A stretch of DNA of 64,000 bases from a virus, in the IMG/VR virus record IMGVR_UViG_3300036987_000083, positions 64,001 through 128,000 of that record. The stretch is one strand, 5' to 3'. Positions within the stretch are counted from its first letter, which is position 1. Each line of letters begins with the position of its first letter. The notes under the pieces were generated by a model. That model was not told the origin of the DNA. It searched no databases and saw only the letters and a program-made list of their open reading frames with translations. This document shows, one piece after another, positions 264-44,700 of the stretch. The position numbers and the translations under genes were made by a program.

Positions 264-611
264 TTACTTCTTCAGGAACTTCGTGGAGCCCTTGGGGAGC
301 GCGGGCGACTTGAACTTCTCGGCGTGATCACGCAGGGCGTTGTCGAGAGCTTCCATGAGCTGCTCGCGCATGAACTCTTTGGGCGCGCCCATGGAAATCA
401 GAGGCTGAATGGCGATGGTCATCAACGCGCGGAGCGTCCGGCGAGCGTGCGCCACGTTATTCATGGGGTCGTAACCCAGCAGGGCTGACAGCTTGGAGGC
501 CACCACCGGGCCAATGGAGTGCTGAATGCCGGTACGGGTGAGGGCGTTGTTGGTGCCCGTGTCCTGCCCCAAGTTGGCCTTGAACTTGTCGAACTTCGCG
601 AGTGCGCTCAT
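264..611 (-). CDS. hypothetical protein (115 aa), paralogue of 7248-7565
   Basis: Start re-set to ATG 611 after AAAGGAAACACA leader; track start 671 is the TTG of the -35 box. Confidence 0.75.
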   Translation of the reverse strand: MSALAKFDKFKANLGQDTGTNNALTRTGIQHSIGPVVASKLSALLGYDPMNNVAHARRTLRALMTIAIQPLISMGAPKEFMREQLMEALDNALRDHAEKFKSPALPKGSTKFLKK

Positions 612-6093: not shown

Positions 6094-6176
6094 TCCACCA
6101 GTCTACCCCAAGAGCCCTGCCGTTGTCAAGAGTGGAACCTGGCGGGAGTTTTCCAACCCGCCCTGGCCGTTTGCAC

Positions 6177-6210
6177 AAAAAAAACCCACCGACCTTTCGG
6201 CCGATGGGTT
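6177..6210 (-). terminator. strong intrinsic terminator ending the pseudoknot transcript
   Basis: ACCCATCGGCC-GAAA-GGTCGGTGGGT followed by T8. Confidence 0.85.
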
Positions 6211-6228
6211 TGTTTGTTTGGTAGTGAA

Positions 6229-6259
6229 GCGCCGAAGTTATAGGGTCAGCGCGGCCCTA
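6229..6259 (-). ncRNA. H-type pseudoknot copy B
   Basis: UAGGG-CC-GCGCUGA-CCCUA-UAACU-UCGGCGC; S1 5 bp, S2 7 bp with one U.G wobble. Confidence 0.7.
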
Positions 6260-6274
6260 AGTACGCTCAAGCAT
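6257..6274 (-). CDS. minigene MLERT*
   Basis: GGGGAG SD 7 nt upstream; UAG stop is 5' strand of pseudoknot B. Confidence 0.5.
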   Translation of the reverse strand: MLERT

Positions 6275-6351
6275 GGTGGCTCTCCCCGCCTTTTTATTCA
6301 TTCAGTGTTTTTTCCAGAGTATGGGTACTCCTCACGTTCTGTTGAGTGAGG

Positions 6352-6379
6352 CCCGGAAGTTATAGGGTCCGGGGCCCTA
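6352..6379 (-). ncRNA. H-type pseudoknot copy A
   Basis: UAGGG-C-CCCGGA-CCCUA-UAACU-UCCGGG; S2 covaries with copy B. Confidence 0.7.
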
Positions 6380-6403
6380 CCGTAAACCCAATGTGCCTGT
6401 CAT
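6377..6403 (-). CDS. minigene MTGTLGLR*
   Basis: GAGG SD; UAG stop is 5' strand of pseudoknot A. Confidence 0.45.
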   Translation of the reverse strand: MTGTLGLR

Positions 6404-6480
6404 TTGCCCTCGGGCGGTTAGAGAAGTTGTTTGACTGCCTTGCTGCTTTCGGTTTCAGCGAGCCCCCCGGCCGTGCCGTG

Positions 6481-6678
6481 TCAAACCAGCACTGAGCCGG
6501 TGTCGGCGGAGCCGACCAGAAACTCGCCCACATCCACCGGGCCGTACTCGTCGAGGACGCCCGGCGTTGACAGCGCCGTCTCCATCAGCGCGTCGAGGGC
6601 GGTAGCCACCGACTCGGCATCAGTCTTCGAGTCGTCGTACTCGACCGCAAAATACAGCCTCGCCGTCTTCTTCGCCAT
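6481..6678 (-). CDS. acidic hypothetical protein (65 aa)
   Basis: AGGAG SD, own promoter. Confidence 0.7.
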   Translation of the reverse strand: MAKKTARLYFAVEYDDSKTDAESVATALDALMETALSTPGVLDEYGPVDVGEFLVGSADTGSVLV

Positions 6679-6739
6679 GGTGCTTCTCCTTTTCCTCTTG
6701 AATCTCTTTTACTACGGGTGGCAGCCCCTTGTCAAGTAC

Positions 6740-7027
6740 CTACTCGTCGCGGACGACGGTAACGAAGTCCGCCCTGTAGATTTCGCAGGAGAGCGGGTAG
6801 GCGTTCCCCTCGGGGGAGGGCGTGCCGTTCAGCGTCTGGGCGACGCGCTCCAAGATGGTGGCCAGCGCCTCCACCTTGCCGCGCTCCTCGCTCCCCTCAG
6901 GGAGAACACAGGCCGCGTTGCGCATGGCGTCCGCCCCGCGCAGCGCCGCACCATACGCCTTGGTGAGTTCGCGGGCACCGTGCATCATGGCGATTCGGTT
7001 CCGGGCGTTCATCGTCGGCTTCGTCAT
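6740..7027 (-). CDS. hypothetical protein (95 aa)
   Basis: Conserved CCCCGCAGTCGAAAGGAACACC leader. Confidence 0.7.
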   Translation of the reverse strand: MTKPTMNARNRIAMMHGARELTKAYGAALRGADAMRNAACVLPEGSEERGKVEALATILERVAQTLNGTPSPEGNAYPLSCEIYRADFVTVVRDE

Positions 7028-7247: not shown

Positions 7248-7565
7248 TTAGCTGGGGAGGACGGGGGAGGGCATCGTGGCCCCCTGCTCCTTTGCTACCT
7301 CGGCGCGCTCCTTCAGCTCGTTGGTGAGGGCGACGCCGCACTCCGCGAAAATCTCGTTGGGGTGAAGCCCCACGTCGAGCGCCAGCTTCATGCCGATGGT
7401 GACGACGGCGCGGAAGGCGCGCCGCGCGTTGTCCTTCTGCGTCAGCACGAGGCCCGGAACGGCCGCGAGGGCGGCGCTCACCGTGGGGAGAATGGCGAGC
7501 ATGATGCCCGTGCGGGTGAGGTGCTTCTCGGGGGCGGGAGCGGGAATCTGGAGGAGGTCGGACAC
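7248..7565 (-). CDS. hypothetical protein (105 aa), paralogue of 264-611
   Basis: GTG start after conserved leader; ARRAFRAVVTIG vs ARRTLRALMTIA. Confidence 0.7.
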   Translation of the reverse strand: MSDLLQIPAPAPEKHLTRTGIMLAILPTVSAALAAVPGLVLTQKDNARRAFRAVVTIGMKLALDVGLHPNEIFAECGVALTNELKERAEVAKEQGATMPSPVLPS

Positions 7566-7742
7566 GGGGTGTTCCTTTCGACTGCGGGTGTGCCCCACTA
7601 ATACCACGTTAGGCAATCAATGGTCAAGGTATTTGTTTCGACCGAATGAAGATAGCTGGCACGCGAAATGATTTCCAGGATTACGCTGGACAATGAGTTG
7701 CCCATGTCCTGCATGCGGGAGGGAGGGAAAACTCCCCGCAGC

Positions 7743-41773: not shown

Positions 41774-44700
41774 AATCACAGGGGGAAGAGCCAAGTCCCA
41801 ACGTACAAGGGAAGAGTTGGAGGCAATGCTTAAGCGAGAGATGTCCTCGCTTACTCCGGATGAAAAAGAGGCGTTGGAAATTATCATTCAGGAGCTGTCT
41901 AAGCCTCAGCAGGGCCCCACGCTTCTCGATACTCTTACGAAAGTGGAGTACAAGCGTACTCCCGTGAGTATGGAGCAGTTCGTCAAGGATCCCTACTACC
42001 TTGGCAACACCTGCGAAAACATCTACCCGGTACTGATGAAAGACTTGGAGGACTTGTTCTCCGGTGGGTACCATGAGGCTGTTTGGACTGGCTGCATTGA
42101 CCTTGACTCCCTTGTCCAAGGAGCCAACGGCTCGCTTCGCACGATTCGGGATTGGATTGGTACTACGGGAGAAGTTATTGGGTTCTCGCCCGAAGGGTCC
42201 AAGGCCGCGAAGACGGGTATCGCCAAGCACTCCGGCATTCAGCCGACGATGCGTCTTACACTGGCGAACGGCATGGCGCAAAGGCTCACACCCAACCATC
42301 AGGTGATGGCTTGGCGAGACGGGTATGCTTGGGTCCGCACCGAAGACCTAGAGCCGGGCGACTTCCTTGTTGTCCCTCGCCAACTCAATACGACGCCAGA
42401 CTCGAACCTTTCTGTGAACGAGGCGAAGCTGCTGGCGTATTGGACCACCGACGGGTCCTCTTCCGAGCAACGTTCTCGATTTACCGATGGAAACTCGGCA
42501 ACCACGGAGGAGGTGGTTGCCCTGCTGGAGAGCCTCGGCTACGCCGGAACTCGAACGCAAATTTCGCCCAAGTGTTGGGAGGTCTATGTCAACGAGCACA
42601 AACGCTCTGGGTTCCTAGAGTGGCTGCGCACCCATGAGGGCCACTATAAGACCAAGGAGGTACTCGTTCCGGATTCTGTTTGCCGGGCGAAGCTTCCTGT
42701 CGTCGCAGCCTTTCTTAACCGAGTCTGGGCTGCCGAGGGTTGCGTTTACATCCACGAAGAGGTTTCCCCTCCTCGTTTTACGCTCGGCATGACTTCTGAG
42801 CGTTACATTCGCCAAGTACAACTGCTACTGCTGCGCTTCGGAGTGATGAGCCGAGTCGTGTTCACCCCTCAGTACGATAAGCGCTCCGGTAAGACCACCG
42901 AAACCTGGCTGCTTACTGTTTCGGGAGTAGGGCCGCTCAAAAAGTTTCTTCAGGTGACTGGGCCAATTTTGGGCAAGGAATCCAAATGCGCGCAAGTGGC
43001 TGCTTATTGTGAGTCGCGCTCCGAGAACACGAACGTGGACGTGCTCCCGATTGAACGCAAATGGCTCAGTCGACAGATGACCCTCGGGGGCATCCAACGC
43101 CCCGCAGGTTCGACTTGGTGGTGTTTAGCCCAAGGCACCGGCAAGCACCTGTCTCGCCAGATGTTCGATAAGTGGCTTGCCGAATACGGCAACACTGCGC
43201 TCGGCGCTCAGCTACGGAGACAGTTTCCAGCAGAGTTCGCGTTCGAGCGTATCGTTACTCTAGAGGACGCGGGCGAGACTGAGGTTGGAGACATCTGTGA
43301 CGTTGAGGGCATTACCAGTTTCGTCTCAAATGGCATTTACGCTCACAATAGTATCGGATACGGCAAGACGCACGTCGCTACTATTGGGGTGTGCCGTGTT
43401 CTTTACGAGCTGTCCTGCATGACGAATCCTCACAAGAGCTACGGCCTTGCGAACGGATCCAACCTTTCAATCGTCTGCATGTCAGTTAACGAAACCTTGG
43501 CGGTGAAGGTCGTCTTCGAAGCAATCGCGTCCAAGATTAAGGACTCGCCCTACTTTGAGGAGCACTTTCCATTCGAGGATACAAAGAAGGAAATGCGCTT
43601 CCCGGGTGGAATCTGGATTGCTGCCCGTGCGTCTACGGATACCTCCGCTCTTGGACTTAACGCCATCGGAGCCCTGATGGACGAGCAGAACTTCCTTGCG
43701 CGAACCGCAAAGGAAGCTCAGATGGGCATCGTCGACAGAGCCGAGACTATCTACAACACCATCCAGCGCCGTATGAAGTCCCGCTTCGAACGTCATGGCA
43801 AGTTGCCAGGTATGCTCTTCATTGTTTCTTCGAAGAAGACAATGGATGACTTCACCGCTAGGCGAATCCGAGATTCTAAAGATGACCCAACTGTCTTTGT
43901 TCGGGATTACGCCCTTTGGGACACAAAGCCAGAAGACCAGTATTCCAAGGAGCGCTTCTGGGTTCTTTGCGGCAACGACACTGTACCTTCGAAAGTACTC
44001 ACCGACGCAGAGTACGCTAAGTTCAAAGACAATGTACCGGAAAACGCCACGTTAATTGCGGCCCCTGAAGACTTTCGTAAAGATTTCGAACGAGATCTTG
44101 AGGGGTGCTTGACTGGGGACACTAAAATACCGCTGCTAGACGGTTCGGAAATTCCTATCGCAGAACTAGTAGGCCGAGAAGAGTTCTGGACGTACTCTTA
44201 CGGTCCTGATGGCCGATTTTACCCGGGGCGAGGCCACTCGGCTCGACTCACGCGTAGCGACGCACCCATCGTAGAAGTGCTCCTTGATAACGGTGAGCGC
44301 ATCCGCTGTACGCCCAATCACCGGTTTATGCTGCGAGACGGAACTTATGCAGAAGCCCGAGAGCTACATCCGGGTACGTCACTGATGCCGTGCTATCGTA
44401 GGCGTGATCGCCACGGCTACGAGCTGCTAAAGTCAAATGTTGGCGGCAAATGGGTGCACACACATCGGCTGGTGGCCTTGGAGTCTCAAGGCGTACCACT
44501 GAAGACATCGACCGTGGTGCATCACCGAAACTTCAGGGAGGGGGACAATACTCCTTCTAATCTTCAGGAGATGACAGTGGAGGACCACACCGCTTTGCAT
44601 GCGGCACGTGTTCACCTTACCATACACAGCCCCGAGGCTAGAACCAAGGCCGCTGCGACTCGAAGCAGGCTCGCGGCAATTCCTGGACCGTTTCGGGATA

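What the first reader, a model, noticed from the sequence alone, without database searches (positions are those of the whole stretch)
6177..6480. Tandem minigene-pseudoknot RNA: two UAG-terminated micro-ORFs whose stop codon forms stem 1 of a covarying H-type pseudoknot
Seen: a 300-nt non-coding 3' extension after the 65-aa gene, ending in a strong terminator. It holds two copies of UAGGG-C(C)-S2-CCCUA-UAACU-S2'. S2 differs completely but stays paired (CCCGGA/UCCGGG vs GCGCUGA/UCGGCGC), and a U.G wobble points to the minus-strand RNA as the functional one. In both copies the leading UAG is the in-frame stop of an SD-preceded minigene (MTGTLGLR* 6377-6403; MLERT* 6257-6274). Known: the same compact geometry (5-bp S1, 1-2 nt L1, no L2) occurs in the T2/T4 gene 32 operator, and comparable H-type folds occur in type III TA antitoxins (ToxI), which some phages mimic with pseudo-ToxI repeats. 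Inference: a translation-coupled RNA device (ribosome or RF1 trap, readthrough or unfolding switch) or an RNA antitoxin mimic released by translation. This looks undescribed.
Basis: partly seen in the sequence, partly recalled or inferred. Interest (0 to 1): 0.87.

Follow-up and report, generated by a model that had tools for sequence, protein, structure and literature searches.

The report
Two micro-ORF/hairpin units in phage RNA
A small clade of uncultured T4-like phages carries a conserved, unannotated RNA module of about 270 nt, made of two tiny ribosome-loadable reading frames that each stop at a UAG just before a covarying hairpin; the hairpins and frames are well supported, the proposed pseudoknot is not, and the function is unknown.

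Summary
On the minus strand, between the 65-aa gene and a strong terminator, there are two copies of UAGGG-N1-2-S2-CCCUA-UAACU-S2'. Each UAG is the stop of an SD-led micro-ORF (MTGTLGLR*, MLERT*).

I found the same module at six further complete or partial metagenomic loci from related phages; a seventh ends after its first nucleotides.
- **Hairpin S2:** supported. Three of 7 pairs change on both sides, cells are 93% paired, and 0 of 500 shuffles reach the covariation score.
- **Stem S1:** not supported as written. UAGGG never varies. Its partner is CCCCG instead of CCCUA in 5 of 13 copies, giving A.C and U.G. Only an invariant GGG:CCC remains, and in copy A a nested extension competes for that GGG.
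- **Micro-ORFs:** SD, AUG, length and UAG are kept in 7/7 and 6/6 loci. Leu, Thr and Arg codons change synonymously.
- **Promoter:** six of eight loci have their own promoter, so this is a self-contained RNA gene.

There is no Rfam match, no ToxN-like neighbour and no antiterminator. My best reading is a translation-gated RNA, possibly a minigene-type ribosome, RF1 or peptidyl-tRNA sink. Function and expression are untested.

The parts
6481..6678 (-). 65-aa ORFan gene upstream of the module. This is context only: in relatives it is not next to the module.
   Evidence: ORF list. It has 12 homologues. In 9 loci holding homologues, the next gene follows directly, with no spacer and no motif.
6420..6426 (-). 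Pyrimidine tract in the leader (CUUCUCU; UUCCUCC in relatives). It could act as an anti-SD against SD2.
   Evidence: RNAalifold pairs it with SD2. Cells are 97% paired with one compensatory change, but 83 of 500 shuffles do as well and slid registers also pair. This pairing is unproven.
6407..6411 (-). SD1 (GAGGG), 3 nt before AUG1. The surrounding CCGAGGGCAAAUGA is invariant in 7/7 loci.
   Evidence: Alignment A3; ORF/SD listing.
6377..6403 (-). Micro-ORF1: 8 codons plus UAG, MTGTLGLR*.
   Evidence: Present with the same length in 7/7 loci. Leu is UUG, CUA or CUG; Thr is ACA or ACU; Arg is CGG or CGU. Peptide variants are MNGTLEKR and MIGTLGLR.
6352..6379 (-). Motif A: UAGGG (6379-6375), L1 C (6374), S2 5' arm CCCGGA (6373-6368), loop CCCUAUAACU (6367-6358), S2 3' arm UCCGGG (6357-6352).
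   Evidence: The outermost S2 pair is C-G in four loci and U-A in three (L069, L105, L106).
6330..6351 (-). Hairpin H3 (CCUCAC ... GUGAGG) directly after motif A. Its 5' CCU can instead extend S2-A by pairing with the GGG of UAGGG.
   Evidence: Folds. Every homologue has a hairpin here with a different stem length and loop.
6280..6287 (-). SD2 (GGGGAGAG; GAGGAGGGG in relatives), 6-7 nt before AUG2.
   Evidence: Its start context resembles that of the 65-aa gene (repeat family D2).
6257..6274 (-). Micro-ORF2: 5 codons plus UAG, MLERT*.
   Evidence: Present in 6/6 loci that reach it, as MLDET or MLEET. The Leu codon is CUU, CUC or UUG.
6229..6259 (-). Motif B: UAGGG (6259-6255), L1 CC, S2 5' arm GCGCUGA (6252-6246), loop CCCUAUAACU (6245-6236), S2 3' arm UCGGCGC (6235-6229).
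   Evidence: G-C becomes U-A at the third pair in L069 and L105; U.G becomes U-A in L095, L075 and L106.
6174..6211 (-). Intrinsic terminator (13-bp stem, GAAA loop, U8) that ends the module.
   Evidence: Homologues have terminators with different, internally complementary stems. The terminator still folds in all 6 when a ribosome is modelled on UAG2.
6707..6735 (-). Promoter-like site (TTGACA 6735-6730, then ..GGCTGCCACCC.., then TAGTAA) upstream of the 65-aa gene. It resembles the module's own promoter in relatives.
   Evidence: Read and compared with L105 804-845. That they are homologous is my inference.

Best explanation
This is a conserved RNA module of about 270 nt, expressed from early-type sigma-70-like promoters, in a narrow clade of T4-like groundwater and sediment phages.

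Layout:
- an optional own promoter and a leader
- SD1, an 8-codon ORF and its UAG, then hairpin A
- a small variable hairpin (H3) and a variable A-rich spacer
- SD2, a 5-codon ORF and its UAG, then hairpin B
- an intrinsic terminator

Shown:
- The two 6-7 bp hairpins are maintained by compensatory change.
- Their 10-nt loops (CCC-YR-UAACU) and the preceding UAGGG are nearly invariant.
- The two SD-led micro-ORFs keep start, length and UAG stop in all homologues.
- The two unit blocks are at least as conserved as the neighbouring protein gene, while the spacer between them is not.

Inferred mechanism:
- Ribosomes load at the strong SDs and translate 8 or 5 codons.
- The 5' arm of each hairpin starts only 6-7 nt after the U of UAG. 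A terminating ribosome therefore has to melt the hairpin and any GGG:CCC tertiary contact.
- Each unit thus toggles between a folded, untranslated state and an open, translated state.
- The most likely output is a minigene-type effect on the translation apparatus early in infection: slow RF1-dependent termination, ribosome stalling, or peptidyl-tRNA drop-off on very short ORFs, as with lambda bar minigenes.
- Control of the RNA's own stability or of loading at SD2 is a second possible output.

The full 5-bp stem 1 of the proposed H-type pseudoknot is not required.
For: - **Copies:** two motif copies, both on the minus strand.
- **Homologues:** found by a metagenome pattern scan and by synteny with the 105-aa gene family: L095, L069, L075, L105, L106, L107 (partial) and L104 (start only).
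- **S2 covariation:** 3 of 7 pairs change on both sides, cells are 92.9% paired, 0 of 500 shuffles reach the covariation score, and slid registers pair in only 22-51% of cells.
- **Micro-ORFs:** they are the only conserved SD-led ORFs. Fewer amino-acid changes occur than when the same substitutions are placed at random (joint p about 0.003). pN/pS is 0.40 and 0.68 in frame, against 0.77 and no synonymous change out of frame.
- **Conservation blocks:** unit 1 is 0.82-0.91 identical to the window, unit 2 0.74-0.78, the upstream CDS 0.78-0.82 and the spacer 0.52-0.60.
- **Own promoter:** TTGACA-N18-TAGAAA in L069, L075, L105, L106, L107 and L104.
- **Terminators:** compensatory changes between homologues.
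- **Minigene literature:** drop-off rises and termination falls as minigenes shorten from 8 to 2 codons (PMC2490762).
Against: - There are no expression data for this RNA, so transcription and translation are inferred from sequence only.
- Only 7 loci (5 distinct ORF1 and 3 distinct ORF2 sequences) support the coding signal. The permutation p-value is helped by substitutions clustering within codons. Counted singly, 7 of 15 variable sites are synonymous.
- SD-like purine tracts and pyrimidine tracts recur throughout the RNA, so the 'SDs' could be structural partners rather than ribosome sites.
- TAG is not a rare stop codon in this phage (78 of 248 crude ORFs), so two TAG stops are not remarkable in themselves.
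- Nothing identifies the downstream effect; the trap idea rests on analogy only.
Confidence: 0.45

Rival explanations
1. It is an untranslated structured small RNA or 3'-UTR element. The two hairpins, with their conserved loops and 5' UAGGG, are binding sites for a phage or host protein, or pair in trans with a target. The SD-like, AUG and UAG letters are conserved as part of RNA structure, not as translation signals.
For: - The loop and flank are nearly invariant while the stem covaries, which is typical of a protein- or RNA-recognised hairpin.
- The RNA is built of mutually complementary G/A-rich and C/U-rich tracts, and RNAalifold pairs the leader with SD2 and SD1 with ORF1 codons.
- The coding signal rests on few sequences.
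Against: - Both ORFs keep exact length, AUG and UAG with no indels, while the spacer has many indels.
- SD2 is a near-ideal GGAGG at 6-7 nt from AUG2 in every locus.
- Leu codons switch between UUG and CUN in both ORFs.
- The long-range pairings lack significant covariation.
Confidence: 0.25
2. The products are the peptides themselves (8 aa and 5 aa). The hairpins are only mRNA-stabilising or termination-context elements.
For: The peptides are partly conserved: M[TNI]GTL[GE][LK]R and ML[ED][RE]T. Amino-acid change is lower than expected.
Against: - Peptides of 5-8 residues translated directly, without a precursor, have few precedents as effectors.
- Three of 7 sense positions in ORF1 and 2 of 4 in ORF2 change residue, some radically (G to E, L to K, R to E).
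- The motif after the stop is more conserved than the codons.
Confidence: 0.08
3. It is a full 5-bp H-type pseudoknot with the UAG in stem 1, acting as a termination or readthrough switch.
For: - UAGGG and CCCUA are complementary in 8 of 13 copies.
- The geometry (L1 1-2 nt, no L2, L3 5 nt) is sterically acceptable.
- GGG:CCC is possible in all copies.
Against: - There is no compensatory change in S1.
- CCCCG replaces CCCUA in copy A of L107 and in copy B of L095, L075, L069 and L106, with no change in UAGGG.
- In copy A, nested folding pairs the GGG with the CCY after S2 (-13.6 against -9.1 to -9.5 kcal/mol for S2 alone).
- The readthrough, -1 and +1 frames are short and not conserved (read).
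Confidence: 0.1
4. It is an RNA antitoxin mimic of a type III toxin-antitoxin system (pseudo-ToxI).
For: The only support is a repeated motif of about 35 nt with possible pseudoknot character in a phage early region.
Against: - The two copies lie 120-122 nt apart with unrelated sequence between them, not head to tail.
- Each copy is fused to an SD-led ORF.
- The S2 sequence differs between copies and between phages, which a mimic of one host antitoxin would not tolerate.
- The ten neighbouring proteins give no PADLOC or PHROG defence or toxin hit.
Confidence: 0.03
5. It is a leader-peptide transcription attenuator, or a recoding signal (bypass, frameshift or readthrough), that controls a downstream protein gene.
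For: - Short ORFs lie upstream of an intrinsic terminator.
- G GGU UUA, a heptamer of X XXY YYZ form, lies 5 nt before the GGG in 6 of 7 ORF1 copies.
- ACU occurs both before UAG2 and inside the conserved UAACU.
Against: - The terminator folds unchanged with a ribosome modelled on UAG2 in all 6 loci, so there is no antiterminator.
- The downstream gene has its own TTGACA promoter and differs between loci.
- No alternative frame gives a conserved product.
- L075 lacks the heptamer.
- ORFs of 5-8 codons are too short for the nascent-peptide signal that gene 60-type bypass needs (bioRxiv 10.1101/2022.08.31.505936).
Confidence: 0.05

Closest known systems
Phage lambda bar minigenes and synthetic toxic minigenes
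   Same: An SD-led AUG is followed by very few sense codons and a stop, encoded by a phage and expressed early. Lengths of 5 and 8 codons lie in the 2-8 codon range where peptidyl-tRNA drop-off competes with termination (PMC2490762).
   Different: The bar ORFs are two codons long and have no conserved covarying hairpin abutting the stop (this description of bar is from my own knowledge). Here there are two units on one RNA, with their own promoter and terminator. No toxicity or drop-off has been shown.
Leader-peptide attenuators (trpL and ermCL types)
   Same: Translation of a short ORF remodels an RNA hairpin placed just downstream of it.
   Different: There is no terminator/antiterminator alternative, no dependent downstream gene, and no regulatory codon run.
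T2/T4 gene 32 autoregulatory pseudoknot
   Same: A compact H-type geometry could be drawn (short L1, no L2), and the host is a T4-like phage.
   Different: The element is not in a gene 32 leader, has no Rfam-level match, and stem 1 is not conserved as a 5-bp helix.
ToxI and other type III antitoxin RNAs, and phage pseudo-ToxI
   Same: A repeated short RNA motif with possible pseudoknot character.
   Different: The copies are not in tandem, no toxin gene is adjacent, the copies differ in stem sequence, and each is attached to a ribosome-binding site and ORF.
T4 gene 60 take-off stem-loop (translational bypass cassette)
   Same: A UAG stop sits in the 5' side of a stem directly after the last decoded codon, in a T4-like phage.
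   Different: The element is not inside a topoisomerase gene, has no nascent-peptide signal, has no ORF to resume, and its matched codons are not consistent (CGU in L075).

Membership tests
Type III TA antitoxin RNA (ToxI-like) or pseudo-ToxI | Head-to-tail tandem repeats of about 34-45 nt | tested here: not met
   Two copies lie 120-122 nt apart and the intervening sequence does not align. The covariance model finds no further copies.
Type III TA antitoxin RNA (ToxI-like) or pseudo-ToxI | An adjacent ToxN/AbiQ/CptN/TenpN toxin gene, or sequence mimicry of a host antitoxin | tested here: not met
   The ten neighbouring proteins give no PADLOC or PHROG hit. Mimicry of a host antitoxin cannot be tested because the host is unknown.
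T2/T4 gene 32 operator pseudoknot | Location at the 5' end of the gene 32 (ssDNA-binding protein) leader | tested here: not met
   The element lies 3' of an ORFan and ends at a terminator. The next gene is a 68-aa basic ORFan with its own promoter.
T2/T4 gene 32 operator pseudoknot | Both stems of the H-type fold are maintained | tested here: not met
   S2 covaries. The outer two pairs of S1 are lost in 4 of 10 distinct sequences.
Any Rfam 15 family (including preQ1-I, pistol and frameshift elements) | A score at or near the family's gathering threshold | tested here: not met
   No gathering-level hit in the window. At E up to 10 or 1, the only hits are terminator-driven chance matches far below threshold.
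Minigenes (lambda bar type) | SD plus AUG plus 1-7 further sense codons plus a stop, on a phage early transcript | tested here: met
   GAGGG-N3-AUG with 8 codons and UAG; GGAG(G)-N6-7-AUG with 5 codons and UAG. Both are conserved in 7/7 and 6/6 loci.
Minigenes (lambda bar type) | Peptidyl-tRNA accumulation or growth inhibition in Pth-limited cells, relieved by Pth or the cognate tRNA | not testable with these tools
   This needs expression in a pth(ts) strain.
Leader-peptide transcription attenuator | Mutually exclusive terminator and antiterminator pairings that depend on ribosome position | tested here: not met
   The terminator hairpin is unchanged in constrained folds with a ribosome on UAG2 in all 6 loci.
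Leader-peptide transcription attenuator | A regulated gene downstream that depends on readthrough | tested here: not met
   The downstream gene has its own promoter and differs between loci.
Gene 60-type translational bypass cassette | Matched take-off and landing codons, a nascent-peptide signal and a resumed ORF inside a topoisomerase gene | tested here: not met
   The ORFs have 5-8 codons, no conserved resumed frame exists, and the take-off codon is CGU in L075 but CGG elsewhere.

The most novel reading that the evidence does not exclude
The phage encodes a dedicated decoy RNA for the translation-termination machinery. It would consist of two strongly initiated UAG-terminated minigenes whose stop codons are wedged against stable hairpins. 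Early in infection these would stall or sequester ribosomes, RF1 or specific peptidyl-tRNAs, or would absorb ribosome-dependent UAG-cleaving toxins of the RelE type. The phage's own 46 tRNA genes would buffer its own translation.
Probability: 0.12. Interest if true: 0.8.

Novelty: new variant of a known kind. Interest (0 to 1): 0.55.

Why it matters
If the micro-ORFs are translated, this would be a natural, evolutionarily conserved case in which a phage couples very short ORFs to RNA hairpins placed at the stop codon. Apart from lambda bar, toxic minigenes are known mainly as engineered constructs. It would give a tractable system of about 270 nt for three questions:
- how structure at the stop codon affects RF1-dependent termination
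- how it affects ribosome recycling and peptidyl-tRNA drop-off
- whether phages use such RNAs to manipulate host translation or to counter ribosome-dependent defences

If the ORFs are not translated, it is still a new structured RNA motif of T4-like phages with clear covariation. Its distribution is narrow (eight loci, with no cultured phage among them).

Tried and rejected
- **Rfam:** gathering and E-value searches gave nothing relevant.
- **tRNA/tmRNA:** none in the window.
- **Cultured phage genomes:** blastn against the phage genome collection found no match.
- **IMG/VR scans:**
  - the motif pattern gave 40 loci, all chance; L030 and L046 lie in the C-terminal codons of a gene I read as RusA-like
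  - the S1-independent leader pattern gave 0
  - the copy-A pattern gave 0
  - the 65-aa, 68-aa and 105-aa proteins gave no relatives
- **GTDB genome contigs:** two pattern scans gave 0.
- **Records of major-capsid-protein relatives (G001-G005):** no motif by pattern or by covariance model.
- **Loci holding homologues of the 65-aa gene (L058-L066):** no spacer and no motif. tblastx of these against the region gave only the 65-aa gene plus noise.
- **Sequencing runs:** no RNA holder is listed, and the two full DNA holders are probably the source samples. Laid contigs were identical, so no variants were gained.
- **Stop-codon reassignment or suppressor tRNA:** 46 tRNAs, none a suppressor.
- **TAG rarity:** TAG is not rare.
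- **Leader-SD2 helix:** plausible but not significant.
- **SD2 opening:** a ribosome modelled on UAG1 produced no consistent change in SD2 accessibility.
- **Considered by eye and dropped:** CRISPR-repeat mimic, preQ1-I-like pocket, anticodon-loop mimic, a -10-like TATAAC, and similarity to the 16S 3' end.

Full report
**Setting**

The window is bases 64001-128000 of a 179,489-bp IMG/VR virus record. The record encodes a T4-type portal, a prohead protease, the Gp23 major capsid protein and a tail sheath. It also carries 46 tRNA genes, none a suppressor. G+C is 0.52-0.66.

Between 4 and 9 kb of the window all genes are small ORFans on the minus strand. Several are preceded by TTGACA...TAnnnT promoters and some are followed by intrinsic terminators.

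**The observation**

On the minus strand the 65-aa gene (6678-6481) is followed by about 300 nt with no ORF of 60 aa or more on that strand. The stretch ends in a 13-bp terminator with a run of eight U (6211-6174).

It holds two copies of a motif of about 35 nt:
- Copy A: UAGGG-C-CCCGGA-CCCUA-UAACU-UCCGGG (6379-6352)
- Copy B: UAGGG-CC-GCGCUGA-CCCUA-UAACU-UCGGCGC (6259-6229)

These are the only two copies in the genome. The rest of the two 120-nt units does not align.

Each UAG closes an SD-preceded micro-ORF:
- GAGGG-caa-AUG ... MTGTLGLR* (6403-6377)
- GGAG-agccacc-AUG ... MLERT* (6274-6257)

**Finding relatives**

Searches that found nothing:
- Rfam
- the cultured phage genome collection
- IMG/VR by pattern or by protein
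- GTDB genome contigs

Homologues of the 65-aa gene exist, but in nine loci the next gene follows at once, with neither spacer nor motif.

One metagenome pattern scan gave 37 loci. Three of them (L095, L069, L075) have perfect S2 complementarity in the exact register and matching flanks.

Reading those three showed the whole module with both copies and a terminator. There it sits behind a different gene, a homologue of window 7248-7616.

Searching that 105-aa protein family and fetching contigs added L105, L106, L107 (which ends after copy A) and L104 (which ends in the leader).

That gives 7 copies of unit A and 6 of unit B, from at least six different samples.

**What is conserved**

The full alignment (A3) shows two conserved blocks:
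- leader end + SD1 + ORF1 + motif A
- SD2 + ORF2 + motif B

They are separated by a spacer rich in indels.

| Segment | Nucleotide identity to the window |
|---|---|
| Unit 1 | 0.82-0.91 |
| Unit 2 | 0.74-0.78 |
| Upstream protein gene | 0.78-0.82 |
| Spacer between the units | 0.52-0.60 |

The functional unit is therefore SD, micro-ORF, UAG and hairpin taken together.

**Hairpin S2**

On the 13-copy alignment (A5), 3 of the 7 S2 pairs change on both sides:
- C-G to U-A at the outermost pair of copy A
- G-C to U-A in copy B
- C-G against G-C, and G-C against U.G or U-A, between copies A and B

Cells are 92.9% paired. The only unpaired cells belong to the seventh pair, which exists only in copy B. 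None of 500 shuffles reaches the covariation score, and slid registers pair in only 22-51% of cells.

The U.G pairs would be A.C on the plus strand, so the minus-strand RNA is the folded molecule.

**Stem S1**

UAGGG is invariant in all 13 copies. Its proposed partner is CCCUA in 8 copies and CCCCG in 5: copy A of L107, and copy B of L095, L075, L069 and L106.

That turns U-A into U.G and A-U into A.C with no compensating change. L069 and L105 copy B differ only by this dinucleotide.

Only GGG:CCC is always possible, and it never varies, so it is uninformative.

In copy A, nested folding instead pairs the GGG with the CCY that follows S2. That gives -13.6 kcal/mol, against -9.1 to -9.5 for S2 alone (L069: -13.5 against -7.6). 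RNAalifold chooses the same extension.

A minimal 3-bp pseudoknot cannot be excluded. The claim that the stop codon is held in a covarying stem 1 fails.

UAG stays invariant even where its U and A have no partner. That fits its use as a stop codon, although the whole neighbourhood is well conserved anyway.

**The micro-ORFs**

They are the only conserved SD-led ORFs in the module. There are no indels within them, and AUG and UAG are invariant.

| Locus | ORF1 | ORF2 |
|---|---|---|
| window | MTGTLGLR | MLERT |
| L095 | MTGTLGLR | MLDET |
| L069, L105, L106 | MTGTLGLR | MLEET |
| L075 | MNGTLEKR | MLDET |
| L107 | MIGTLGLR | contig ends before it |

Synonymous changes:
- ORF1: Thr ACA/ACU, Leu UUG/CUA/CUG, Arg CGG/CGU
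- ORF2: Leu CUU/CUC/UUG

Coding tests:
- pN/pS is 0.40 and 0.68 in frame, against 0.77 and no synonymous change in another frame.
- Placing the same substitution patterns at random gives 11.4 amino-acid changes on average, against 6 observed (joint p about 0.003). This figure is flattered by substitutions clustering within codons.
- Counted singly, 7 of 15 variable sites are synonymous.

I read this as suggestive of translation, not proof.

TAG is not rare in this phage: 78 of 248 crude ORFs end in it.

**A self-contained module**

In L069, L075, L105, L106, L107 and L104 the module starts with its own TTGACA-N18-TAGAAA promoter. The promoter is embedded in a perfect 10-bp inverted repeat, GACTGCCACC ... 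GGTGGCAGTC.

L095 and the window lack it. In the window only TTGACA and a GGCAGTC remnant are left after the 65-aa gene. A similar promoter-like site (..GGCTGCCACCC..) sits in front of that gene instead.

The downstream gene has its own promoter and differs between loci. It is a 68-aa basic ORFan in the window, L069 and L105, and other genes in L095 and L075.

L106 is a chimera: unit 1 is identical to L105, while unit 2 and the terminator match L075.

The module thus behaves like the promoter/terminator cassettes that shuffle in T4-type early regions.

**Mechanism**

The terminator folds the same way whether or not a ribosome is modelled on UAG2, in all six loci. There is therefore no attenuator logic.

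No readthrough, -1 or +1 frame gives a conserved product. The X XXY YYZ heptamer G GGU UUA in ORF1 is missing in L075.

Bypass of the gene 60 type needs a long nascent peptide and an ORF to resume.

A ToxI-like role is contradicted by four points:
- the copies are not in tandem
- each copy is attached to a ribosome-binding site and an ORF
- the stems differ between copies and between phages
- there are no toxin-like neighbours

What the anatomy does imply is this. The 5' arm of each hairpin starts 6-7 nt after the U of UAG, so a ribosome with UAG in its A site must already have opened it. Each unit is therefore a hairpin gated by translation.

ORFs of 5 and 8 codons with strong SDs are in the length range where peptidyl-tRNA drop-off competes with termination (PMC2490762).

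My best guess, by analogy only, is a minigene-type effect on ribosomes, RF1 or peptidyl-tRNA. A second possibility is control of the RNA's own fate or of loading at SD2.

A pyrimidine tract in the leader (UUCCUCC; CUUCUCU in the window) can pair with SD2 (GGAGGGG; GGAGAG in the window) with one compensatory change. This is not significant. Modelling a ribosome on UAG1 did not consistently change SD2 accessibility.

**Limits**

- No expression data exist for this RNA.
- There are only eight loci, and no cultured host.
- The function is not established.

**Verdict**

This is a real, selected RNA module that Rfam 15 does not describe. The pseudoknot is reduced to an optional 3-bp contact, and the antitoxin-mimic and gene 32 analogies do not hold.

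Noticed in passing
L105:804-845 (also L069, L075, L106, L107, L104): The module's own promoter (TTGACA 804-809, TAGAAA 828-833) lies inside a perfect 10-bp inverted repeat, GACTGCCACC (813-822) / GGTGGCAGTC (836-845), that straddles the -10 box. It could be an operator for a repressor, or a hairpin in readthrough transcripts.
   Followed up: partly
window:6707-6735 (minus) and window:6478-6483: A promoter-like site resembling the relatives' module promoter (..GGCTGCCACCC..) lies upstream of the 65-aa gene. Only a TTGACA/GGCAGTC remnant is left between that gene and the module. This suggests that the 65-aa gene, and perhaps the 95-aa gene at 6740-7027, were inserted into the module's leader.
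   Followed up: partly
L106:1048-1385 compared with L105 and L075: L106 is chimeric. Unit 1 and the spacer are identical to L105, while motif B, the 3' spacer and the terminator match L075. This indicates recombination inside the module.
   Followed up: no
G000:C1:34522-34833, 43838-43910 and 129893-150633 (outside the window): The phage carries 46 tRNA genes, mostly in one cluster of about 20 kb, with anticodons for all 20 amino acids. None is a suppressor.
   Followed up: no
window:6383-6389 (minus); the same position in L095, L069, L105, L106 and L107: ORF1 contains G GGU UUA in frame, a heptamer of X XXY YYZ form, 5 nt before the GGG. The -1 frame stops at the invariant UAA of the loop. 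L075 lacks the heptamer, and no conserved product results.
   Followed up: partly
L071:10685-10707, L082:5111-5133, L088:809-831: Three high-GC (0.68-0.71) metagenome contigs share a conserved TAGGGTTTTTACCCTATAACTTCCG.. segment, an AU-rich hairpin in GC-rich surroundings. They were picked up by the pattern by chance and are unrelated to the module. Their identity is unknown.
   Followed up: no
window:5887-6093 (minus); L105:1219-1422; L069 about 400-515 (minus): The 68-aa gene downstream of the module in three loci has a strongly basic C-terminal tail (..AEARKRKKAERQRKK..). It may bind nucleic acid. It has no family hit.
   Followed up: no
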